From NCBI GenBank assembly GCA_024641635.1, contig JAHECS010000001.1, positions 119,845-183,844 on the forward strand: a stretch of DNA of 64,000 bases, written 5' to 3'. Of this stretch, positions 12,669-21,161 are shown in pieces. This stretch comes from Actinomycetes bacterium. Lineage in GTDB: Bacteria; Actinomycetota; Actinomycetes; S36-B12. The notes beneath the pieces were generated by a model. The model saw only the letters and a list, made by a program, of their open reading frames with translations. It had not been told where the DNA came from and searched no databases. The position numbers were made by a program, and so were the translations under genes. Position 1 is the first letter of the stretch, and every line of letters begins with the position of its first letter.

Positions 12669-12684
12669 GAAACCAGATGGTTAC
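12669..12684 (+). promoter_or_regulatory. GlnR-box-like site upstream of the ABC permease
   Basis: GAAAC-cagatg-GTTAC: 5-mer half sites 6 nt apart, resembling the actinobacterial gTnAc-n6-GaAAc consensus. Confidence 0.35.
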
Positions 12685-12811
12685 CGTTTTGACCCACGGC
12701 GGCCCCCCGACCGTGGATATGCTGCCCGCGCTGACGCAGGTCAGACGCCGCCTTCGGAGTCACCGGAGGGAGCGCATCGCAATGGGAGGAGCGCCGCGCG
12801 TGCACAGACGC

Positions 12812-14074
12812 ATGATGGCCGCCCTGGGCGCCCTGTTCGTGGCACTCGTCGCACTGTTCGCCCTGGCGCAGCCGGCGTCCGCTGAAGGCGAGACCATCGG
12901 CGGTCGGCTCGAGAACCGTGCCGAGGGCACGAGGACCCCCATCAGCGGAGCGACGATCACGGTCGTGGGCGACGGTTTCGAGGGGTCCACGACGAGCGGT
13001 GACGACGGCACGTGGCTGATCGAGGTCCCCGGGCAGGGCGATTACGAGGTCACCCTCGACGTCGCCACGCTGCCGGAGGGGGTGGGGCTCACCGACGCTG
13101 AGAAGGTCACCGTCGTCACGAACGTGAAGCCGCCGACGAAGAATCGCATCGTCATCTTCCCCCTGGGCCAGAGCACCGCGAAGACCACGACGGTGTGGGA
13201 GCAGGCGGCCCAGCTGACCGTGTCAGGCATCCAGTTCGGCCTCATGATCGCGCTCGGTGCCCTTGGCCTGTCCATCATCTACGGCACGACGGGCCTGACC
13301 AACTTCGCGCATGGCGAGATCATGACCTTCGGGGCTCTCGCCACGTGGACGCTGAACGCCGGCATGGGGGTTCCCTTCGTCCTGGCCGCCATCCTCGGTG
13401 TGATCCTGTCCGGCGCGTTCGGCTGGCTGAACAACGCCGGCCTGTGGAAACCGCTGCGCAAACGGGGCACCGGGCTCATCGCCATGATGATCGTGTCGAT
13501 CGGCCTGGCGCTGTTCCTGCGGAACCTCTTCCTGTTCTTCTACGGCGGTGACAAGAAGGCCTACGCGGAGTACGCGGGCCTGGCGGGCTGGGAGTTCGGT
13601 CCGGTGTCGCTGACCCCCACTGACATCGTGTCGATGGCCGTGGCCGTCGTCGCACTCGTCGTGGTGGTCCTCGTCGTGCAGAAGACCCGCATGGGCAAGG
13701 CAACCCGGGCAGTCTCCGACAACCCCAGCCTTGCCTCCAGCGCTGGCATCAACGTCGAGCGCGTCATCACGTTCGTCTGGGTCCTCGGCGCTGCCCTGGC
13801 CGGCCTGGGTGGCCTGCTGCTCGGCTTCAGCCAGCAGGTGTCATTCCAGATGGGCTTCCAGATCCTGCTCCTCATCTTCGCCGCCGTCACACTCGGCGGA
13901 CTCGGCACCATCTGGGGAGCCATCCTCGGTTCGCTCGTGGTCGGGCTCTTCCTGCAGCTCACCACACTCGTCATCCCCACCGAGCTGAAGAGCGTCGGCG
14001 CTCTGTTCGTCCTGATCGTCATCCTCCTTGTCCGTCCATACGGCCTGCTGGGCCGCCGAGAGCGCGTGGGTTAG
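12812..14074 (+). CDS. livH: Branched-chain amino acid ABC transporter permease (LivH-like) with N-terminal extracytoplasmic domain
   Basis: GLTNFAHGE, AVSDNPSLA, AAVTLGGLGT motifs; signal peptide plus about 100 aa beta-rich domain at N-terminus; start uncertain (12782/12800/12812). Confidence 0.88.
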   Translation: MMAALGALFVALVALFALAQPASAEGETIGGRLENRAEGTRTPISGATITVVGDGFEGSTTSGDDGTWLIEVPGQGDYEVTLDVATLPEGVGLTDAEKVTVVTNVKPPTKNRIVIFPLGQSTAKTTTVWEQAAQLTVSGIQFGLMIALGALGLSIIYGTTGLTNFAHGEIMTFGALATWTLNAGMGVPFVLAAILGVILSGAFGWLNNAGLWKPLRKRGTGLIAMMIVSIGLALFLRNLFLFFYGGDKKAYAEYAGLAGWEFGPVSLTPTDIVSMAVAVVALVVVVLVVQKTRMGKATRAVSDNPSLASSAGINVERVITFVWVLGAALAGLGGLLLGFSQQVSFQMGFQILLLIFAAVTLGGLGTIWGAILGSLVVGLFLQLTTLVIPTELKSVGALFVLIVILLVRPYGLLGRRERVG

Positions 14075-14086
14075 GGGGCGGCAGTC

Positions 14087-15082
14087 ATGGATTGGGGATA
14101 CATCCTCTCGGTCATGGTGGTCTCGGCGTTCGGCGTCGAGGCGATCGTCTTCGGACTGGCCGCGATCGGCGTCAACATGCAGTTCGGCTACACCGGACTG
14201 CTCAACTTCGGCCAGTCGGCGTTCATGGCCGTGGGTGGCTACTCCGTCGCCGTCACGGTCATCGAGTTCGGGTTCAACTTCTGGGTCGGCGTCATTCTCG
14301 GGCTGGTCATCGCAGCACTCCTGGCCGTGATCCTGGGCATCCCGACGCTGCGACTTCGCGCCGACTACCTGGCCATCGTGACCATCGCCGCCGCGGAGAT
14401 CGTCCGACTGCTCGTGCGCTCCGTCACGTTCAAGGACTTCTTCGGCGGTTCTGACGGCAAGCAGAGCTTCGCCAGCGGCTTCTTCGCCCTCAGCCCGCTG
14501 GCCAGCGACGTCTCGTTGCGCATCGGCCCGGTGGCCCTCAACAACCGGCAGATCTTCGTTCTCATCGTCGGCTGGGCAATCGTCTTCCTGGGCTGCCTGC
14601 TCGTCTGGCTGATGGTGCGCTCGCCCTGGGGTCGCGTCCTCAAGGGCATCCGTGAGGACGAGGACGCGGTTCGCAGCCTCGGCAAGAACGTGTACCTGTA
14701 CAAGATGCAGGCCCTGGTCATCGGTGGCATGTTCGGCGCGATCGCCGGCTTCGTCTACGCCGTCGGCAACGAGGCGGTCAGCCCGGACTTCTTCGGGACG
14801 GACACGACGTTCTTCGTCTACGCCATCCTCATCCTCGGCGGCGCCGCGCGGGTCTTCGGGCCGGTCCTCGGCACGGTCATCTTCTGGGCAATCATCCAGG
14901 GGACGGACGTCTTCCTGCGGTCCGCGATCGACGTCGGAGTGCCCGTCATCTCGCTGATGAACGGCACGCAGGCGGCGGTCGTCCGCTTCATGCTCGTCGG
15001 ACTCGGGATCATGCTCCTCATGATCTTCCGACCACAGGGAATCCTCGGAGATCGAAAGGAGCTGGCCCTCGATGCCCGATAG
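14087..15082 (+). CDS. livM: Branched-chain amino acid ABC transporter permease (LivM-like)
   Basis: GYTGLLNFGQ, LRLRADYLAIVT, WGRVLKGIREDE. Confidence 0.92.
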   Translation: MDWGYILSVMVVSAFGVEAIVFGLAAIGVNMQFGYTGLLNFGQSAFMAVGGYSVAVTVIEFGFNFWVGVILGLVIAALLAVILGIPTLRLRADYLAIVTIAAAEIVRLLVRSVTFKDFFGGSDGKQSFASGFFALSPLASDVSLRIGPVALNNRQIFVLIVGWAIVFLGCLLVWLMVRSPWGRVLKGIREDEDAVRSLGKNVYLYKMQALVIGGMFGAIAGFVYAVGNEAVSPDFFGTDTTFFVYAILILGGAARVFGPVLGTVIFWAIIQGTDVFLRSAIDVGVPVISLMNGTQAAVVRFMLVGLGIMLLMIFRPQGILGDRKELALDAR

Positions 15083-15980
15083 CCCTGACGCCGCGTCCGG
15101 CTCGCGCAAGGACGCCGCCGTCCGAGCCCTGGCCGACGTGCCCCGTACCCCGGGCTCACCGAAGCCGGATCCCATCCTCGTCGCCGATCACGTCATCCGG
15201 CGCTTCGGTGGCCTGACCGCCGTCGACGTCGAGCACGTCGAGGTGCAGCGCGGCGCGATCACTGCGCTCATCGGGCCCAACGGCGCCGGCAAGACGACCT
15301 TCTTCAACCTCCTCACCGGCTTCGACACCCCGGACACAGGGAGTTGGCTGTTCAACGGCAAGGACATCGCGGGAGTGCCGTCCTACAAGGTGGCCCGCCT
15401 CGGCATGATCCGCACCTTCCAGCTGACCAAGGCACTGTCCAAGATGACGGTCCTGGAGAACATGCGGCTCGGTGCGACGGCGCAGAAGGGCGAGCGCCTG
15501 CTGGCCTCGATGTTCGGGTTCCTCTGGGGGGCCCAGGAGAAGGCGATCACCGAGAAGGCCGACGACCTGCTCAAGCGCTTCAACATGCATGCGAAGCGCG
15601 CTGACTTCGCGGGCGAGCTGTCGGGCGGCCAGCGCAAGCTGCTGGAGATGGCGAGAGCCCTCATGACCGACCCCGAGATGGTCATGCTCGACGAGCCCAT
15701 GGCCGGCGTGAACCCAGCCCTCACCCAGTCTCTGCTGGAACACATCAAGAACCTCCGGGAGCAGGGAATGACGGTCCTGTTCGTCGAACACGACATGGAC
15801 ATGGTCCGCGACATCAGCGACTGGGTCATCGTCATGGCCCAGGGCAAGGTCATCGCCGAGGGTCCCCCAGATGAGGTCATGCGCGACGAGGCCGTCATCG
15901 TGGCCTACCTGGGCGGCCACCATGACAAGGCGCTGACGTCGACCGGCGTGTCCTTCACCGAGGAGGGTGAGGACCAGTGA
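15072..15980 (+). CDS. livG: Branched-chain amino acid ABC transporter ATPase (LivG-like)
   Basis: GPNGAGKTT, RTFQ, LSGGQRKLLE, MLDEP. Confidence 0.93.
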   Translation: MPDSPDAASGSRKDAAVRALADVPRTPGSPKPDPILVADHVIRRFGGLTAVDVEHVEVQRGAITALIGPNGAGKTTFFNLLTGFDTPDTGSWLFNGKDIAGVPSYKVARLGMIRTFQLTKALSKMTVLENMRLGATAQKGERLLASMFGFLWGAQEKAITEKADDLLKRFNMHAKRADFAGELSGGQRKLLEMARALMTDPEMVMLDEPMAGVNPALTQSLLEHIKNLREQGMTVLFVEHDMDMVRDISDWVIVMAQGKVIAEGPPDEVMRDEAVIVAYLGGHHDKALTSTGVSFTEEGEDQ

Positions 15981-16849
15981 GCGAGCAGCTTCCCGGCGAT
16001 CTGCCCCAGTACGTCTCCCCCCATCAGCGGGAGGAGGCCCTCGACCTCGACGCGGGTCAGCGGGACGAGCCGCGCACCCTCAGCAACTCCGAGGTCCGCG
16101 ACCGCAACGCGCACATTGAAGGGGCGAAGGACGCCCTGATCGTGGCCGACGACCTCATCGCCGGGTACATCCCAGGAGTCAACATCCTCAACGGATCGGA
16201 CCTCTACGCGAAGTCCGGCGAGATGGTCGGGATCATCGGGCCGAACGGGGCAGGCAAGTCCACGCTGCTCAAGGCGATGTTCGGGCTGGTCAAGGTGCGC
16301 ACCGGTCGCGTGACGCTTGCCAACGGGGACATCACGAACGTCCGCGCCGATCAGCTCGTCAACATGGGGATCGGCTTCGTCCCGCAGACCAACAACGTGT
16401 TCCCCTCACTGACCATCCAGGAGAACCTGGAGATGGGCTGCTACCAGGCACCCAAGAAGTTCACCGAGCGGTTCGACTTCGTGTGCGACCTCTTCCCCGC
16501 CCTCGGCGAGCGGCGGGCGCAGCGCGCCGGCCAGCTCTCGGGTGGCGAGCGCCAGATGGTCGCCATGGGCAGGGCACTGATGATGGACCCGTCAGTCCTG
16601 CTGCTCGACGAGCCGTCGGCGGGCCTGTCCCCCATCCTCACCGACGAGGTGTTCGTCCGGGTCAAGGAGATCAACGCGACGGGCGTGACCGTGATCATCG
16701 TCGAGCAGAACGCGATGCGTTGCCTGCAGATCGTGGATCGCGGCTACGTGCTCGACCAGGGCCGTAACGCCTACACGGGGACTGGCCGCGCGCTCGCGAC
16801 GGACCCGAAGGTGGTCCAGCTGTACCTGGGCACCCTCGCCAAGGCCTGA
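15977..16849 (+). CDS. livF: Branched-chain amino acid ABC transporter ATPase (LivF-like)
   Basis: GPNGAGKST, LSGGERQMVA, LLDEPS, VEQN. Confidence 0.93.
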   Translation: MSEQLPGDLPQYVSPHQREEALDLDAGQRDEPRTLSNSEVRDRNAHIEGAKDALIVADDLIAGYIPGVNILNGSDLYAKSGEMVGIIGPNGAGKSTLLKAMFGLVKVRTGRVTLANGDITNVRADQLVNMGIGFVPQTNNVFPSLTIQENLEMGCYQAPKKFTERFDFVCDLFPALGERRAQRAGQLSGGERQMVAMGRALMMDPSVLLLDEPSAGLSPILTDEVFVRVKEINATGVTVIIVEQNAMRCLQIVDRGYVLDQGRNAYTGTGRALATDPKVVQLYLGTLAKA

Positions 16850-16856
16850 CCCTCCC

Positions 16857-16922
16857 CCGCCGAGAGGCAAGCTGTGGTCGTGTAACCGGCCACGTTCACG
16901 ACCATTGCCTGCCTCTCGGCGG
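16857..16922. repeat. REP-like palindrome, family copy A
   Basis: CCGCCGAGAGGCA (16857-16869) pairs with TGCCTCTCGGCGG (16910-16922); TGGTCGTG (16875-16882) pairs with CACGACCA (16897-16904). Confidence 0.88.
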
Positions 16923-16972
16923 CCTGTGGACAGGCATTTGGCACGAGACCCGAGAGTCGGCACCGTTGGCCC

Positions 16973-17980
16973 GTGCCGAACCCGCAGCGCATCCGCGCCA
17001 CCGTCGATGCCCTGGCTGCTCTCCCCCAGCCGGTCGCGCTCGGCGATCTCCCGGGGATCGGACTCACCCGGGGCCGGACCCGATCGGCCATCGCAGCGGG
17101 CGCGCTGGTGCAGGTGCGCCGCGGCTTCGTCGTTCCGACCGACCTGTGGGAGCAGGCCGACCCACGGGCGCGGCACGACCTCAGGCTGCGCGCCGCACTA
17201 CGCGCTTATCCGGGCACATGGGCCAGCCGAGAGTCGGCGGGCCGGCTGGTAGGGCTGCCCGTCTTCGACGACGGGCCGGACGATCCCCACGTGCACATCA
17301 GCAGAAGCGGGACGACGGCGCGGGAGCCGCACGTCACGGTCCACGGCAACGAGGTGCCCGACGGATTCGTGGACACCATTGCCGGGCTACGCACGACGAA
17401 CCTCGTCCGGACCGCGGTCGAACTGTCCGCCGTTCCCTCACAGCGACGCGCGATCGCGGTCATGGATGCTGCGATGCGTCTCATGATCGCCAGCCGCGAC
17501 CCGGATGACGTGCGCGCCCGAGTCCTCGACGCAGCGGCGCGCGACCACGCACGGCACGTCCTCGATGCCGCCATCGGGCCGTACAGCCGGCATCGCTGGG
17601 TCACCAGCGTCCGGCGGGCCGTCGCATCGGCGAATCCGGCGGCGGAGTCAGTGCTCGAGTCGTTCTCACGCGTGGCCATGTGCGACGCACGGCTCCCCGA
17701 GCCGGAGTGCGGCGTCCCAGTGGTCGGCGACGATGGCCGGACCTACTGGGCGGACTTCCTGTGGCGGAGGCACCGAGTGATCGGCGAAGCAGACGGAGCG
17801 GCCAAGTATCGCCAGGTCAGCCAGCTCGTCGAGGAGAAGAGGCGTGAAGAAGCGCTTCGCGGAGCCGGTTGGACCGTGGTCCGCTGGGGTTGGCCAGAGG
17901 CCGTCACGGACCCCCAGGTGATGGTGCGACGACTGCGGGCCGCCCTCGCCGCCCCGCCGACAGGCACGCCGTGGTCGTGA
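16973..17980 (+). CDS. AbiEi-like N-terminal domain plus C-terminal DUF559/Vsr-like nuclease protein
   Basis: LVQVRRG, SRESAGRLVGLP, TTNLVRTAVEL (AbiEi-like); AESVLES, ADFLW..VIGEADG..KY, EKRREEALRGAGWTVVRW (DUF559/Vsr-like). Confidence 0.85.
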   Translation: MPNPQRIRATVDALAALPQPVALGDLPGIGLTRGRTRSAIAAGALVQVRRGFVVPTDLWEQADPRARHDLRLRAALRAYPGTWASRESAGRLVGLPVFDDGPDDPHVHISRSGTTAREPHVTVHGNEVPDGFVDTIAGLRTTNLVRTAVELSAVPSQRRAIAVMDAAMRLMIASRDPDDVRARVLDAAARDHARHVLDAAIGPYSRHRWVTSVRRAVASANPAAESVLESFSRVAMCDARLPEPECGVPVVGDDGRTYWADFLWRRHRVIGEADGAAKYRQVSQLVEEKRREEALRGAGWTVVRWGWPEAVTDPQVMVRRLRAALAAPPTGTPWS

Positions 17981-18019
17981 AGACCCCCCGTTTGACGACC
18001 ACGGCGTGCCTCTCGGCGG
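17954..18019. repeat. REP-like palindrome, family copy B (overlaps the 3' end of the nuclease gene)
   Basis: 25-bp inverted repeat with one mismatch, 17954-17978 vs 17995-18019, 16-nt loop. Confidence 0.9.
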
Positions 18020-18038
18020 ATGGGGGTGTCCGAAGACG

Positions 18039-18074
18039 ACTGTGGGGGCCGTCCCGAAGGACGGCCCCCACAGT
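18039..18074. terminator. Intrinsic terminator-like hairpin downstream of the binding-protein gene
   Basis: Perfect 16-bp stem ACTGTGGGGGCCGTCC-CGAA-GGACGGCCCCCACAGT. Confidence 0.8.
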
Positions 18075-18087
18075 GCGTGGTGCGTGA

Positions 18088-19464
18088 CTAGCTGGCAGCG
18101 TTCGGGCCGATGCCCTGCTTCACCAGCTCCTGGATGATCTGAGCCGACTCATCGAAGCCGATGAGCACGATCGCCTCAGGTCCAGCAGCCTTGATCTTCG
18201 CCACGTCAGCGGCGAAGTCGGTGGCCTTGGGGTCGTAGACGACGTTGGCGACAACCTCGCCACCGCCCTCGGTGACCGCCTTGGTGACGTTCTCGTTCAG
18301 ACCGTCACCGTAGGAGTCCTGCAGGGACATGATGGCGACCTTGGTGAAGCCATCCTGCAGAACCATCGAGCCGACGAAGGCGCCCTGGAGCACGTCCGAC
18401 GGAGCGTTGCGCCAGTAGAGGCCCTTGTCCGGAGCGGTGGTCAGCGCAGGCGAGGTGTTCGCCGGGCTGAACATCAGGACGCCGGCATTGGTGACCTGGT
18501 CGAGAACCGACAGGGTCGAGCCCGACGAAGCCGCACCGATGAGCACGTCGATGCCCAGCGGCAGCAGGCGCTTCACGGTCTGCTTTCCGGTCTCGGTCGA
18601 CGTGTCGCCCGAGTCGCCCTCCTCGAGAACGACCTTGTCGAAGCCGGGGATGCCACCGGCCGCCTCGATGTCCTGGATAGCGAGCTTCACGCCCGCGACC
18701 TCCGGTGGCCCGAGGAAGGCAAGGTTGCCCGTCAGCGGCAGGAAGGTTCCGACCTTGAAGACGCCGTCGCCAGCGCCCTCGCCGGGCTTCCCGTCGATCG
18801 GGTTCGCGTCACCCTCGGGGACGATCTCGCCCTCCATGTAGGTGACCTCAGAGCTCAGCGTGTTGTCCGGCCCGAAGGTGTAGACGCCGATCGAGGCGCT
18901 GGTGGGGTCACCCGCGTCCCAGAAGTTGATGGCGCCGGAACGACCGTTGTAGTCGATGTCCTTGCCCTGGGCGAGGAGCTCGATGCAGCCTGCGTAGTCA
19001 TTGCAGATCTCGGTGCCGTTCGTGATCGGAACGAGCTGCTTGGCCATGTCTGGGCCCGCATCGGACTTGGCCTTGGCCGCCGCCAGAGCGCTCAGGATGA
19101 CCGCGTCGTACGACTCCGGCGCGTAGGCGAAGTCGACAAGCTCGGGATCGACCCCAAGGAGTGCATCCTTGAAGTCCTGGGTGTTCTCGGCGCCGGGGAT
19201 GGTGCCCTTCACGCCATCGAGAGTCCCCGCAGGGAGCTTCTCGCCCAGAGCATTGCCCGTGTTTCCGTCAACCAGGTAGAGCGGAGTGCCAGACGAGGCG
19301 GGTGCCTCAGAGGCGGGAGCCTCCGACGCGGGAGCCTCGGACGCCGGCGCCTCGCTGGCGGCCGCGCTCGACTCGGATGAGCTGCTGCTTCCACCGCAAG
19401 CGGCGAGAGTCAGCGAGGCAACACCGAGCACAGCGGCCGTCTTGAAGACCGTGGTGCGCTTCAT
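18088..19464 (-). CDS. ABC transporter substrate-binding lipoprotein (LivJ/LivK-like type I PBP), apparently circularly permuted
   Basis: Lipobox LAAC23, four SEAPA repeats, then YLVDGN...YAPESYDAVIL...DIDYNGRSGAINF, with the usual N-terminal KVGTFLPLTGNLAFLG only from residue 237. Confidence 0.88.
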   Translation of the reverse strand: MKRTTVFKTAAVLGVASLTLAACGGSSSSSESSAAASEAPASEAPASEAPASEAPASSGTPLYLVDGNTGNALGEKLPAGTLDGVKGTIPGAENTQDFKDALLGVDPELVDFAYAPESYDAVILSALAAAKAKSDAGPDMAKQLVPITNGTEICNDYAGCIELLAQGKDIDYNGRSGAINFWDAGDPTSASIGVYTFGPDNTLSSEVTYMEGEIVPEGDANPIDGKPGEGAGDGVFKVGTFLPLTGNLAFLGPPEVAGVKLAIQDIEAAGGIPGFDKVVLEEGDSGDTSTETGKQTVKRLLPLGIDVLIGAASSGSTLSVLDQVTNAGVLMFSPANTSPALTTAPDKGLYWRNAPSDVLQGAFVGSMVLQDGFTKVAIMSLQDSYGDGLNENVTKAVTEGGGEVVANVVYDPKATDFAADVAKIKAAGPEAIVLIGFDESAQIIQELVKQGIGPNAAS

Positions 19465-19532
19465 GCAGTCTCCTTAGAGAATGACAAACGACGGCGGATA
19501 CCGTCGTGTTAGGGCTACCTTAGGGATCAGCG

Positions 19533-19588
19533 GTTACGTGCGGGTAACCGGGTGTTACATCGTTGGCGCTTCGTGACGCATCTGTGAC
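19533..19588. promoter_or_regulatory. Cluster of GTNAC half sites (GlnR-box-like) upstream of the binding-protein gene
   Basis: GTTAC 19533, GTAAC 19544, GTTAC 19554, GTGAC 19573, GTGAC 19584; two pairs have a 6-nt spacer. Confidence 0.5.
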
Positions 19589-19602
19589 TTTTCTGTCCCG
19601 TT

Positions 19603-20190
19603 TCAGGGTGTTTCGGACACCACGAGGGCCGCGACCTCGGCAAGCGTCACCCGACGATCCATCGCCGCCTTGCGCAGCCAGGCGAACGCCTCGGGCTCCG
19701 AGACGCCCAGTTTCAGCTCGAGAACGCGCTTGGCGCGATCGACGACGTCCCGCGCATCCTGGCGCTCGCGCAGCCCGGAGATCTGCTCCTCCAGGGCCTG
19801 CATCTGCTGCCACCGAGCGACCGCGACCTCGATGGCGGGGGTGAGGTCAGCGCGCGTGAACGGCTTCACGAGATAGCCGAGGACGCCCGCCGCCGTGGCC
19901 CGCTGAACCGTCTCGCGCTGGCTGAAGGCCGTGACCATGACGACGGGGGCGAGCCCCTCGGACACGATCTCCTCAGCAGCGGACAGCCCGTCGCGGCGCG
20001 GCATGGCCACGTCGAGGAAGACCACATCGGGCCGCAGCGCCCGAGCCTGGTCGACGGCCGCCTGACCGTCCGACACCTGTCCCACCACCCGGTAGCCGCA
20101 CTCGCCCAGCAGCTCGACGAGGTCCATCCTGATCAACGCCTCGTCCTCGGCGACGAGGACGGTGATGGGTGGCGGGTCTTGGGTGGTCAT
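19603..20190 (-). CDS. ANTAR-domain response regulator (PdtaR-like)
   Basis: Receiver domain VAEDEALIR/FLDVAMP/YLVKPF plus ANTAR VVDRAKRVL...EPEAFAWLRKAAMD; TAGGCT 6 nt before ATG. Confidence 0.93.
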   Translation of the reverse strand: MTTQDPPPITVLVAEDEALIRMDLVELLGECGYRVVGQVSDGQAAVDQARALRPDVVFLDVAMPRRDGLSAAEEIVSEGLAPVVMVTAFSQRETVQRATAAGVLGYLVKPFTRADLTPAIEVAVARWQQMQALEEQISGLRERQDARDVVDRAKRVLELKLGVSEPEAFAWLRKAAMDRRVTLAEVAALVVSETP

Positions 20191-20232
20191 GTGGCCAGCC
20201 TAGGAGTCGCCGATGGCTACCCTTGTCATCGC

Positions 20233-20306
20233 GCCCCGGTATCCCAACCGGCAGAGGAAGCGGTCTCAAACACCGTCCAGTGTGGGTTCGAATCCCACCC
20301 GGGGCA
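20233..20306 (+). tRNA. tRNA-Leu(CAA), 74 nt, short variable loop, CCA not encoded
   Basis: Acceptor GCCCCGG/CCGGGGC, anticodon arm GCGGT-CTCAAAC-ACCGT, T-arm GTGGG-TTCGAAT-CCCAC, discriminator A. Confidence 0.93.
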
Positions 20307-20441
20307 CGCTCGTGATCTCTCGATCCGGCTCGTCCATCCATGGCTGCCCCGGCGCGGACCGGCCACCCCGAGGTGCGCGTTGCGGCGTCGCGGGGATTGC
20401 CTAGAGTTTCCCTCGTACCACCGACGAGGCAGGGGCGAGGC

Positions 20442-21161
20442 GTGCGCGGAACCGTCGTGGCAGCCGTCCTTCTCGCGGTCATCGCGTCCGTGGGCGCGCC
20501 GGCCGCGCAGGCCCAGCCTGCTCCGGACGCGCCCGCCTCCGCGGGTACGGGATGGACATCCTTCTTCGCCAGCGGCCCTCTCCAGGAGAGCGGCTGGGCT
20601 GGGTGCGACGTTCCCATCGGCGTCAGCATCGACGACACCTCGAAGTTCTCGGCCACGGTGGCAGGCAAGGTCGCGCAGGCACTGACCAACGCCGTGCAGC
20701 TGTGGTCGTCCAACTCCCCCCTGACGTTCACCTTCACCGGTCTGGTCCCCATGCAGCACGACTCCCAGAGTGGGGTCACCTCGCCGGTCGACGGGGTTCA
20801 GCGGCGGCGGCATCTCTACATCGCCTTCGTCGCGGACAGCCAGTCCGAAGCACTGAACAAGGACATCGTCGGCCTGGGCCTGCCCACCAGCGTCGATGCC
20901 GCCAACAAGGCGATCCTGCTCGCCGAGGCGACCTTCGAGCGCGACTACGTGGTGAACTCGACGCTCAAACAGGTCACCGCGCTCTTCACCCACGAGATGG
21001 GCCACGCACTGGGGCTGGGGCACAGCACGGACAGGCGCGACATCATGTACCCGATCGTCCGCTCGGCGACGAAGCTCGGCCCGGGGGATGTGATCGGACT
21101 GCAATCCCTGCTGCGCCCCTGTCTCGACCCCAGCGCCTCGCGCGACTATCCGCTCCCGTAG
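20442..21161 (+). CDS. Secreted matrixin-like zinc metalloprotease (metzincin)
   Basis: Signal peptide ending AQA; HEMGHALGLGH zinc motif; Met-turn DIMYP; start set at GTG 20442. Confidence 0.88.
   Translation: MRGTVVAAVLLAVIASVGAPAAQAQPAPDAPASAGTGWTSFFASGPLQESGWAGCDVPIGVSIDDTSKFSATVAGKVAQALTNAVQLWSSNSPLTFTFTGLVPMQHDSQSGVTSPVDGVQRRRHLYIAFVADSQSEALNKDIVGLGLPTSVDAANKAILLAEATFERDYVVNSTLKQVTALFTHEMGHALGLGHSTDRRDIMYPIVRSATKLGPGDVIGLQSLLRPCLDPSASRDYPLP

What the first reader, a model, noticed from the sequence alone, without database searches (positions are those of the whole stretch)
18088..19464. Naturally circularly permuted ABC substrate-binding lipoprotein
Seen: after the lipobox (Cys23) and SEAPA x4 tether, the mature protein starts at G59 (19290) with TPLYLVDGN...GVKGTIPGA...FAYAPESYDAVIL...DIDYNGRSGAINF...GDPTSASIGVYTF. 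A roughly 30-aa Gly/Pro/acidic linker follows, and only at G232 (18771) comes GDGVFKVGTFLPLTGNLAFLGPPE...SPANTSP...RNAPSD...IVLIGFDE, ending at GIGPNAAS. Known: in LivJ/LivK-type (type I PBP) proteins the 'K(I/V)G.L.PLTG' strand is the first element and the 'YA..(S/A)YDA' and 'G.(S/T)G.I.F...GD' motifs lie in the last third. So the canonical C-terminal third has been moved to the front, with a single copy of each part and an intact frame. Inference: the lipid anchor is now attached to a different lobe, which may change docking with the permease or ligand kinetics. I know of no described natural permutant in this family, but cannot check.
Basis: partly seen in the sequence, partly recalled or inferred. 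Interest (0 to 1): 0.8.

Follow-up and report, generated by a model that had tools for sequence, protein, structure and literature searches.

The report
Circularly permuted LivJ-type binding lipoprotein
The nutrient-binding lipoprotein of this actinobacterial amino-acid ABC importer really has its last third moved to the front of the chain, and this swap has arisen more than once among its relatives and has displaced the normal-order gene at the same locus in one genus.

Summary
The ORF at 18088-19464 (-) encodes a 458-aa lipoprotein.

Against a normal-order relative from the same gene neighbourhood in a Frankiales MAG:
- residues 233-455 align to its residues 1-222 (61% identical)
- residues 57-214 align to its residues 222-379 (58% identical)

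This is a clean circular permutation. The cut lies between ...QGIGPN and PLYLVDGN, and an 18-residue Pro/Gly/acidic bridge (215-232) joins the old ends.

It is not an assembly error. The gene is present in 30 of 33 genomes of its genus, both pieces have dN/dS of 0.09-0.36, and independent contigs span the junction. It sits in a conserved neighbourhood: pdtaR, then the binding protein, then convergent livFGMH.

Sister genera and other orders carry the normal-order gene at that position. Some genomes of the same genus carry the permuted and normal genes side by side. Most have lost the normal one.

Among the 150 closest cluster representatives, 42 are permuted and 101 are normal. Two cut sites about 22 residues apart are used. 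A single origin of the site-A forms is rejected (AU p = 1e-6). In-frame tandem doubles also exist.

A permuted type I binding protein is already published: TpMglB-2 of Treponema pallidum, in the sugar-binding family with a different cut. I found no description for the Leu/Ile/Val-binding family. I rate it a new variant of a known kind, of moderate interest.

The parts
18088..19464 (-). Whole CDS of the circularly permuted LivJ-type substrate-binding lipoprotein (458 aa plus stop)
19396..19464 (-). Signal peptide and lipobox (residues 1-23, LAAC, Cys23)
   Evidence: Read from the translation. R3, L20, A21, A22 and C23 are invariant in 31 homologues.
19291..19395 (-). Low-complexity Ser/Ala/Pro/Glu tether (residues 24-58), including SEAPA four times
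   Evidence: 15-nt tandem repeat, 3.8 copies. pLDDT below 50. dN/dS 0.23-0.52, relaxed compared with the folded parts.
18823..19290 (-). N piece (residues 59-214). It is homologous to the last ~157 residues of normal-order relatives: the rest of the C-lobe, the second half of the N-lobe and the final beta-hairpin. It contains the invariant DGNTGN motif with D66.
   Evidence: BLASTP to L036 residues 222-379, 58% identical. phmmer against 101 normal-order representatives. Secondary-structure elements map one to one. dN/dS 0.09-0.36 (computed on residues 59-213).
18769..18822 (-). New bridge (residues 215-232, VPEGDANPIDGKPGEGAG) joining the old C-terminus to the old N-terminus
   Evidence: It has no counterpart in normal-order relatives: L036 ends opposite residue 214 and starts opposite residue 233. 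It resembles the acidic Gly/Pro lipoprotein tethers of normal relatives and the inter-unit linkers of tandem doubles.
18091..18768 (-). C piece (residues 233-458). It is homologous to the first ~222 mature residues of normal-order relatives: the first half of the N-lobe and most of the C-lobe.
   Evidence: Pfam Peripla_BP_6 positions 3-217 of 343. BLASTP to L036 residues 1-222, 61% identical. PDB sequence hits to 4n0q, 4gnr, 1usg and 1z15.
19465..19602 (-). 138-nt leader between pdtaR and the binding-protein gene, with hairpins and an AAGGAG ribosome-binding site
   Evidence: The fold is not significantly more stable than shuffled sequence (z = -1.45).
19603..20190 (-). PdtaR-like response regulator with an ANTAR output domain, directly upstream on the same strand. 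This adjacency is conserved in relatives.
   Evidence: Pfam Response_reg plus ANTAR. Synteny.
12677..16849 (+). The cognate ABC importer genes, convergent to the binding-protein gene: livH-like (12677-14074), livM-like (14087-15082), livG-like (15072-15980) and livF-like (15977-16849)
   Evidence: Pfam BPD_transp_2 twice, ABC_tran twice and BCA_ABC_TP_C. Conserved synteny in 30+ loci.

Best explanation
**What it is**
- This is the functional substrate-binding lipoprotein of the adjacent LivHMGF-type ABC importer. The ligand is most likely an amino acid.
- It is a true natural circular permutant of the LivJ/LivK (Peripla_BP_6, type I) fold.

**Chain layout**
1. Signal peptide and lipobox, ending at Cys23.
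2. A disordered S/A/P/E tether.
3. The segment that normally forms the last ~37% of the protein. It starts at a C-lobe beta-strand, 7 residues before the invariant Asp66. Asp66 aligns with the acidic residue that binds the ligand's amino group in LivJ.
4. An 18-residue Pro/Gly/acidic bridge.
5. The segment that normally forms the first ~63% of the protein, ending right after a C-lobe helix.

**How it should work (inferred)**
- The two pieces are predicted to assemble into the usual two-lobed Venus-flytrap. It would close on the ligand and dock on LivH/LivM.
- Both chain termini now lie in the C-lobe.
- The bridge adds a fourth inter-lobe connection.
- The membrane tether pulls on the C-lobe instead of the N-lobe.

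**How it arose (inferred)**
- The normal order is ancestral at this locus.
- Permuted genes arose from in-frame tandem fusions (A-B-A-B) trimmed at both ends. This happened at one of two permissive loop sites about 22 residues apart, and more than once in the subfamily.
- In the window's genus a site-A permuted gene was added between pdtaR and the normal gene. In most species it then replaced the normal gene.

**Shown versus inferred**
- Shown: the permutation, its conservation under purifying selection, the synteny, the two cut sites, and the coexistence and replacement series.
- Inferred: the ligand class, the lobe assignment of the termini, the fourth crossover, the duplication-and-trimming route, and any functional consequence.
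For: **The permutation itself**
- Swapped-order homology to the same proteins:
  - 61% and 58% identical to L036, with exact junctions.
  - among the 150 closest 50%-cluster representatives, 101 have the C piece followed directly by the N piece, and 42 have the query's order. Example: in P0124 the C piece matches 53-275 and the N piece 277-428.
- The de-permuted sequence restores collinear matches to Pfam and PDB.
- NCBIfam's LivJ model covers positions 27-226 of 370 in the query, but 26-365 in the normal-order relative P0124.

**Predicted fold**
- AF2 model of the query: pTM 0.79, with folded parts mostly at pLDDT 70-97.
- Its secondary-structure elements map one to one, after rotation, onto the AF2 model of the normal-order relative.
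- Foldseek aligns the normal-order model over 376-390 columns to LivJ-family structures (TM 0.84-0.86). It aligns the permuted model over only ~220 columns to the same structures (TM 0.52-0.56).

**Real and functional**
- More than 100 full-length clusters at 70-91% identity come from independent assemblies.
- The gene is present in 30 of 33 genomes of the genus, including single-contig genomes.
- dN/dS is 0.09-0.36 in both pieces.
- Putative ligand-contact motifs are invariant.
- Logan contigs tile the gene, including the internal junction at 18771.

**Role**
- The gene is convergent to livHMGF and downstream of pdtaR in 30+ loci.

**Evolution**
- Normal-order genes occupy the same position in sister genera and in Frankiales, Mycobacteriales, Nitriliruptorales and Acidimicrobiales.
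- Permuted and normal genes sit in tandem in G012, G017, G005, G022 and L032.
- Site-B forms carry a 21-23 aa C-terminal tail that corresponds to the query's N-terminal strand and helix.
- The AU test rejects a single clade of site-A forms (p = 1e-6).
- Trees of each piece alone are also polyphyletic.
- Tandem A-B-A-B lipoproteins exist, with similar inter-unit linkers.
Against: - No experimental structure, ligand or transport data exist.
- The lobe assignment of the termini and the extra hinge crossover rest on my recollection of the LivJ domain boundaries.
- The window's permuted clade is not the sister of the neighbouring normal-order clade in the tree. So an origin from the local gene is not shown; an old paralogue or horizontal acquisition is equally possible.
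- The counts of independent events come from 'quick' IQ-TREE and FastTree trees with short, weakly supported backbones. Gene conversion among paralogues could inflate them.
- The same cut site A recurring in several clades could instead reflect fewer origins.
Confidence: 0.92

Rival explanations
1. There were only one or two ancient permutation events, one per cut site. The apparent scattering of permuted forms among normal-order ones would then be a tree artefact, or the result of gene conversion or recombination between paralogous binding-protein genes.
For: - All site-A forms share the same cut position to within a few residues.
- Backbone branches are short, and many are unsupported: 51-55 of 124-142 forks are drawn open.
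- Many rows have deviant amino-acid composition.
- Site B could be a single origin on the 127-row tree: the fewest changes forced by well-supported branches is 1.
Against: - The AU test rejects monophyly of the site-A forms (lnL difference 242, p = 1e-6).
- Trees of the C piece alone and the N piece alone each force at least 3 changes.
- The 145-row tree forces at least 6 changes for site A and at least 3 for site B through branches with SH-aLRT support of 95% or more.
- Bridge sequences are unrelated between site-A clades.
- Two different cut sites already require at least two events.
Confidence: 0.25
2. The gene is a non-functional or chimeric remnant. On this view a 3' fragment of one binding-protein gene was fused to a 5' fragment of another. 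The two parts would not assemble into one binding fold, or the protein would no longer serve the transporter.
For: - No experimental data exist.
- Standard profiles see only two thirds of a domain.
- The own genome holds four further full-length, normal-order Peripla_BP_6 genes.
Against: - Both pieces are under purifying selection (dN/dS 0.09-0.36).
- About 190 columns are invariant across 31 homologues, including the predicted ligand-contact motifs.
- In most species of the genus it is the only binding-protein gene left at the livHMGF locus.
- AF2 predicts one compact fold (pTM 0.79). Its elements map one to one onto the normal-order model.
- Metatranscriptome contigs of close relatives cover parts of the gene.
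Confidence: 0.04
3. The swapped order is an assembly or binning artefact of the metagenome-assembled genome.
For: The genome is a draft of 82 contigs.
Against: - The same architecture is found in more than 100 protein clusters from NCBI, JGI, ENA and Logan assemblies.
- It is found in 30 genomes of the genus, including single-contig chromosomes.
- Independent Logan contigs from two sediment samples cover 18680-19431 and 18244-18709 with 0 differences, spanning the internal junction.
Confidence: 0.01

Closest known systems
Normal-order LivJ/LivK-type Leu/Ile/Val-binding proteins (Pfam Peripla_BP_6 PF13458; HAAT-family, type I / cluster B SBPs; PDB 1Z15, 2LIV, 1USG, 4GNR, 4N0Q, 3IPC)
   Same: - Clear sequence homology of both pieces. 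Identity reaches 61% and 58% to actinobacterial normal-order relatives and 24-30% to solved structures.
- The same predicted secondary-structure elements.
- The same partner genes (livHMGF).
- A lipoprotein tether, as in Gram-positive members.
- Conserved counterparts of the ligand-contact motifs.
   Different: - The chain order is rotated: the last ~37% comes first.
- The new termini lie in a C-lobe loop.
- The old termini are joined by an 18-aa bridge, which is inferred to be a fourth inter-lobe connection.
- Standard profiles and sequential structure aligners cover only about 220 residues.
TpMglB-2 (Tp0684) of Treponema pallidum and relatives, proposed 'Type Ic / Cluster Bc' ligand-binding proteins (PMC4990184)
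   Same: - A naturally circularly permuted type I / cluster B binding protein.
- A tethered lipoprotein.
- The permutation adds a fourth hinge crossover.
- Ligand binding and closing are retained in that protein.
   Different: - A different family (MglB-type sugar binding), with no detectable sequence relation to this protein.
- There, the first ~100 residues (three N-lobe strands) are moved to the C-terminus. Here, the cut is in the C-lobe.
- There, the moved part has only ~13% identity to normal relatives, and its origin is unclear. Here, both parts are 55-61% identical to normal relatives.
- Here the normal, tandem-fused and two differently permuted forms all still exist.
In-frame tandem double LivJ-type binding proteins (for example representatives P0128, P0222, P0225)
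   Same: - The same subfamily.
- Lipoproteins.
- The inter-unit linker between the last strand of unit 1 and the first strand of unit 2 resembles the query's internal bridge in length and composition.
   Different: They keep two complete units (A-B-A-B). The query keeps only the inner B-A.

Membership tests
LivJ/LivK-type SBP (Pfam Peripla_BP_6, HAAT family, type I / cluster B) | Significant match to the family profile above the curated cut-off | tested here: met
   PF13458 scores 115.7 bits against a cut-off of 31.7. PDB LivJ-family hits have E-values of 1e-13 to 1e-18.
LivJ/LivK-type SBP (Pfam Peripla_BP_6, HAAT family, type I / cluster B) | Collinear order: the first N-lobe strand (K[IV]G..P.TG) at the mature N-terminus, and the YDA and G.SG...F...GD motifs in the last third | tested here: not met
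   The profile is covered only at positions 3-217 of 343, by residues 237-454. The rest lies upstream at 59-214. Collinearity is restored only after in-silico de-permutation.
LivJ/LivK-type SBP (Pfam Peripla_BP_6, HAAT family, type I / cluster B) | Two-lobed alpha/beta Venus-flytrap fold | tested here: met
   This is a prediction only. AF2 gives pTM 0.79. All elements map one to one onto the AF2 model of a normal-order relative, which superposes on LivJ-family structures with TM 0.84-0.86. No permutation-aware superposition could be run.
LivJ/LivK-type SBP (Pfam Peripla_BP_6, HAAT family, type I / cluster B) | Genetic linkage to LivH/LivM-type permeases and LivG/LivF-type ATPases | tested here: met
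   BPD_transp_2 twice and ABC_tran twice, directly convergent to the gene. The arrangement is conserved in 30+ loci.
LivJ/LivK-type SBP (Pfam Peripla_BP_6, HAAT family, type I / cluster B) | Binds branched-chain or other amino acids in the inter-lobe cleft | not testable with these tools
   Indirect evidence only. S313/S314, A335-N336-T337, Y385, F437-D438 and D66 are invariant. They align by motif with the LivJ ligand-contact positions, which I recall from the literature.
'Type Ic / Cluster Bc' (TpMglB-2-like permuted type I LBPs, PMC4990184) | Circularly permuted relative to normal-order type I / cluster B proteins | tested here: met
'Type Ic / Cluster Bc' (TpMglB-2-like permuted type I LBPs, PMC4990184) | Homology to TpMglB-2 / MglB-type sugar-binding proteins | tested here: not met
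   No MglB or Tp0684 chain appears among the 46 PDB sequence hits at E <= 0.01, nor among the top 50 Foldseek hits. All of the closest hits are Leu/Ile/Val-binding-family proteins.
'Type Ic / Cluster Bc' (TpMglB-2-like permuted type I LBPs, PMC4990184) | Cut in the N-lobe, with its first three strands moved to the C-terminus | tested here: not met
   Here the cut falls at about residue 222 of the mature normal-order protein. That corresponds to about LivJ residue 218, which lies in the C-lobe by the published domain boundaries as I recall them.

The most novel reading that the evidence does not exclude
This actinobacterial LivJ-type subfamily is a natural hot spot of circular permutation.
- Gene order has switched between normal and permuted at least four to six times.
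- The switches went through in-frame tandem fusions that still exist.
- They always resolved at one of two permissive loop sites about 22 residues apart in the C-lobe.
- In one genus the permuted gene has displaced the normal one at the same locus, with the side-by-side stage still present in some species.
- Permuted modules have also been recruited as extracellular sensor domains of Ser/Thr kinases.

If so, the subfamily would be a living series for testing the duplication-and-trimming model. It would also allow a test of whether moving the tether point or adding a fourth hinge strand changes the dynamics of a binding protein.
Probability: 0.45. Interest if true: 0.7.

Novelty: new variant of a known kind. 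Interest (0 to 1): 0.55.

Why it matters
- **Annotation.** Profile-based annotation covers only two thirds of these proteins. Sequential structure aligners cover only about 220 residues. Permuted members are therefore easily mistaken for truncated or two-domain proteins.
- **Protein evolution.** Natural circular permutants are rarely found together with their normal-order relatives at 55-61% identity. Here the tandem-fused intermediates, a second cut site and a side-by-side locus also survive. This gives a concrete system for testing the duplication-and-trimming model.
- **Binding-protein function.** It allows a direct test of whether the tether attachment point and the hinge connectivity matter for a Venus-flytrap binding protein.
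- **Engineering.** LivJ-type proteins are used as biosensor scaffolds. The two naturally tolerated cut sites show where new termini or insertions are accepted.

Tried and rejected
1. **A misreading of my own, corrected.** I first took the 'query residues 59-455' column of the search for related loci to mean collinear permuted orthologues in Frankiales, Mycobacteriales, Nitriliruptorales and Acidimicrobiia. Separate tblastn searches with each piece showed otherwise:
   - L036-L044 have the normal order.
   - L034 and L035 are cut at site B.
   - The window's site-A orthologues are confined to its own genus.
2. **In-situ origin from the neighbouring normal gene.** The permuted clade and the local normal-order clade are not sisters. 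This origin is not supported, though it is not excluded.
3. **A link between the permutation and the N-terminal extension of LivH.** The extension is also present at loci with normal-order binding proteins. Rejected.
4. **PDB search with a junction-spanning fragment.** It returned only spurious pentatricopeptide-repeat hits and gave no residue-level LivJ alignment across the junction.
5. **Rfam scan of 17900-20400.** No riboswitch or ANTAR-target family was found in the leader. It found only a tRNA and spurious miRNA-like hits on a palindrome. The leader fold is not significantly stable.
6. **Literature searches for a permuted LivJ-type, solute-binding or branched-chain amino-acid binding protein.** They returned only engineered biosensors. 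The one natural precedent found is TpMglB-2.
7. **Permutation-aware 3D superposition.** This was not possible, because model coordinates are not exposed to the scripts.
Full report
**1. Observation**

The minus-strand ORF at 18088-19464 is intact and encodes 458 aa. Its layout is:
- a signal peptide with the lipobox LAAC (Cys23)
- a Ser/Ala/Pro/Glu tether containing SEAPA four times (a 15-nt repeat, 3.8 copies)
- two folded parts

Profile searches show the anomaly. Pfam Peripla_BP_6 matches only residues 237-454, on profile positions 3-217 of 343. NCBIfam's LivJ model covers positions 27-226 of 370 in the query, but 26-365 in a normal-order relative. PDB LivJ-family chains match only query residues 231-455.

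**2. It is a true circular permutation**

- The N-terminal part alone hits the end of the ANF_receptor profile (positions 271-349 of 353, E = 0.0025).
- A sequence rotated in silico (232-458 followed by 59-231) matches across the junction:
  - Peripla_BP_6 positions 3-308 and ANF_receptor positions 6-349
  - 4gnr residues 8-303
- An exhaustive phmmer search of 1.84 billion cluster representatives, followed by searches with each piece separately, classified the 150 closest representatives:

| Order of pieces | Representatives |
|---|---|
| C piece followed directly by N piece (normal order) | 101 |
| Query's order (permuted) | 42 |
| One piece only | 7 |

- As an example of the normal order, in P0124 the C piece matches 53-275 and the N piece 277-428.
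- BLASTP against the relative from the same neighbourhood in a Frankiales MAG (L036) gives exact junctions:
  - query 233-455 matches 1-222 (61% identical, E = 1e-89)
  - query 57-214 matches 222-379 (58% identical, E = 2e-52)

The cut therefore lies between ...QELVKQGIGPN and (G)TPLYLVDGN. Residues 215-232 (VPEGDANPIDGKPGEGAG) are a new 18-aa bridge between the old ends.

**3. Predicted fold**

- AF2 on 31 homologues gives pTM 0.79. The tether is disordered, and the folded parts are mostly at pLDDT 70-97.
- An AF2 model of the normal-order relative gives pTM 0.81.
- All 26 elements of the permutant correspond one to one to those of the normal model. The residue offset is 165 for the N piece and 232 for the C piece.
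- Foldseek, a sequential aligner, behaves as expected for a permutant:

| Model | Aligned columns | TM | E-value |
|---|---|---|---|
| Normal-order relative | 376-390 | 0.84-0.86 | ~1e-22 |
| Permuted query | ~220 | 0.52-0.56 | ~1e-10 |

- The targets are the same in both cases (3ip5, 3td9, 4gnr, 4n0q).
- No solved structure matched the query collinearly over both pieces.

By motif alignment, G59 corresponds to about LivJ residue 218, and the invariant D66 to LivJ Glu226. The LivJ domain boundaries, as I recall them, are N-lobe 1-120 and 250-329, and C-lobe 121-249 and 330-346. On that basis:
- both new termini lie in the C-lobe
- the tether now attaches to the C-lobe
- the bridge adds a fourth inter-lobe connection

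These three points are inference, not measurement.

**4. It is real and functional**

- More than 100 protein clusters at 70-91% identity and full length come from independent NCBI, JGI, ENA and Logan assemblies.
- 30 of 33 genomes of the window's GTDB genus carry the gene collinearly (64-91% identical for the query's own type). Several of these genomes are single contigs.
- Logan contigs from two sediment samples tile the gene with 0 differences across the internal junction at 18771.
- Metatranscriptome contigs of close relatives cover parts of the gene.
- dN/dS is 0.09-0.36 for each folded piece, against 0.23-0.52 for the tether.
- Mean column identity over 31 homologues is 74%. The invariant motifs are DGNTGN, GAASSG, SPANTSP, QD.YG.GL and GFDES.

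**5. Genomic role**

The gene lies downstream of a PdtaR-like response regulator with an ANTAR domain. It is convergent to livH, livM, livG and livF. This neighbourhood is conserved in more than 30 loci. In most species of the genus it is the only binding-protein gene at the locus. The most likely function is therefore the ligand receptor of this importer. An amino-acid ligand is inferred from family membership and the conserved contact motifs.

**6. Evolution**

I first misread and corrected it with piece-wise tblastn. The corrected picture is:

| Form at the pdtaR / binding protein / livFGMH position | Where found |
|---|---|
| Normal order | sister genera of the same family; another family of the order; Frankiales, Mycobacteriales, Nitriliruptorales and Acidimicrobiales MAGs |
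| Site-A permuted gene directly followed by a normal-order gene | G012, G017, G005, G022 (same genus) and L032 |
| Site-A permuted gene only | the window and most of its genus |
| Site-B permuted gene | Ilumatobacteraceae and other Acidimicrobiia (L034, L035; L035 is a short contig with livG-livF upstream and co-directional, no pdtaR seen) |

Site B is a second cut, about 22 residues further along. These proteins keep ...YGVDGN.GNALGE.FDAG as a C-terminal tail, and their N piece starts later.

Trees were built on de-permuted concatenations of the two pieces:
- Permuted and normal-order forms are interleaved, with 9-11 changes of state.
- Branches with SH-aLRT support of 95% or more force at least 4-6 of these changes for site A.
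- The AU test rejects a single site-A clade (lnL difference 242, p = 1e-6).
- Trees of each piece alone agree.

In a phylum-wide even sample of 401 genomes, 7 other genomes carried collinear permuted hits. They fall in at least four families and two classes. Eleven genomes carried normal-order close relatives.

In-frame tandem doubles A-B-A-B exist in the same subfamily (P0128, P0222, P0225; P0193 has three or more units). Their inter-unit linkers resemble the query's bridge. Normal-order relatives have acidic Gly/Pro tethers ending in ...GDG. before the first strand, as the bridge does. All of this fits the duplication-and-trimming route.

One caveat applies. The window's permuted clade is not the sister of the local normal-order clade. 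Whether it arose at this locus or arrived as an old paralogue or by transfer is open.

**7. Comparison with what is known**

The closest family is the normal-order Leu/Ile/Val-binding group. The protein meets its profile, predicted-fold and operon criteria, but fails collinearity.

The published precedent for natural permutation of a type I binding protein is TpMglB-2 (Tp0684; PMC4990184). Its authors proposed the label 'Type Ic / Cluster Bc'. They noted a fourth hinge crossover and speculated about adaptation to tethering. That protein differs in three ways:
- it is in the sugar-binding family
- it is cut in the N-lobe
- its moved part is only ~13% identical to normal-order relatives

I found no paper describing a permuted LivJ-type protein. 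The library does not cover subscription journals.

The tethering idea gets no special support here. The normal-order relatives are also lipoproteins with long tethers.

Earlier AI notes of this scan report the same phenomenon in other Actinomycetota, Acidimicrobiia, haloarchaea and Clostridia. I treated them as leads. Here I independently reproduced the two cut sites, the multiple origins and the tandem doubles.

**8. Verdict**

This is a new variant of a known kind. It is of moderate interest on its own, and of more interest as part of a subfamily in which all stages of permutation survive.

Noticed in passing
window 16857-18019 (DUF559 gene at 16973-17980 +): The gap between livF and the binding-protein gene holds a solo DUF559-domain gene. 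Homologues (47-56% identical) sit at the same position in only 3 of about 30 related loci (L012, L024, L029). Most others have a gap of 130-370 nt, and some hold other inserts of 0.9-2 kb. The site therefore looks like an insertion hot spot with presence/absence polymorphism.
   Followed up: partly
window 17955-18025: The palindrome just downstream of the binding-protein stop codon has about 30-fold higher summed contig depth than its flanks in the source-like metagenome (1006 vs 33-40 in X1). Many short contigs end there, so it is a multi-copy dispersed repeat. Rfam gives only spurious miRNA-like hits on both strands.
   Followed up: partly
window 19465-20190 (-): A PdtaR-like ANTAR response regulator lies directly upstream of the binding-protein gene. 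This adjacency is conserved from the window's genus to Frankiales, Mycobacteriales and Nitriliruptorales, whatever the order of the binding protein. The 138-nt leader has a 7-bp hairpin with a hexaloop and an 8-bp GC-rich hairpin followed by UUUGUCAUU. The fold is not significantly stable (z = -1.45), and no Rfam family matched.
   Followed up: partly
window 12677-14074 (+): The LivH-type permease has an N-terminal extension of about 180 aa. It consists of a signal-anchor and a segment with a sub-threshold CarboxypepD_reg-like hit (25.3 bits against a cut-off of 32.3). Most of the extension is also conserved at loci with normal-order binding proteins, so it is not linked to the permutation. 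Its role is unknown.
   Followed up: partly
representatives P0135, P0149, P0146, P0194, P0139, P0137, P0158 (not in the window): Both orders of this binding domain occur as C-terminal modules of larger proteins. The permuted module follows Ser/Thr kinase domains (P0135, P0149) and Bmp/PnrA-type binding proteins (P0146, P0194). The normal-order module follows a kinase (P0139), an RDD domain (P0137) and a TIR-NB-ARC STAND ATPase (P0158).
   Followed up: partly
L032 8001-10658; L047 4722-7403; L048 6212-8940: In some genomes of the window's genus a site-A permuted gene and a normal-order gene lie head to tail between pdtaR and livF. This is the apparent intermediate stage before loss of the normal-order copy.
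   Followed up: yes
window 20233-20306 (+): A tRNA gene (Rfam, 53 bits) lies between pdtaR and the matrixin-like metalloprotease gene (20340-21161 +).
   Followed up: no
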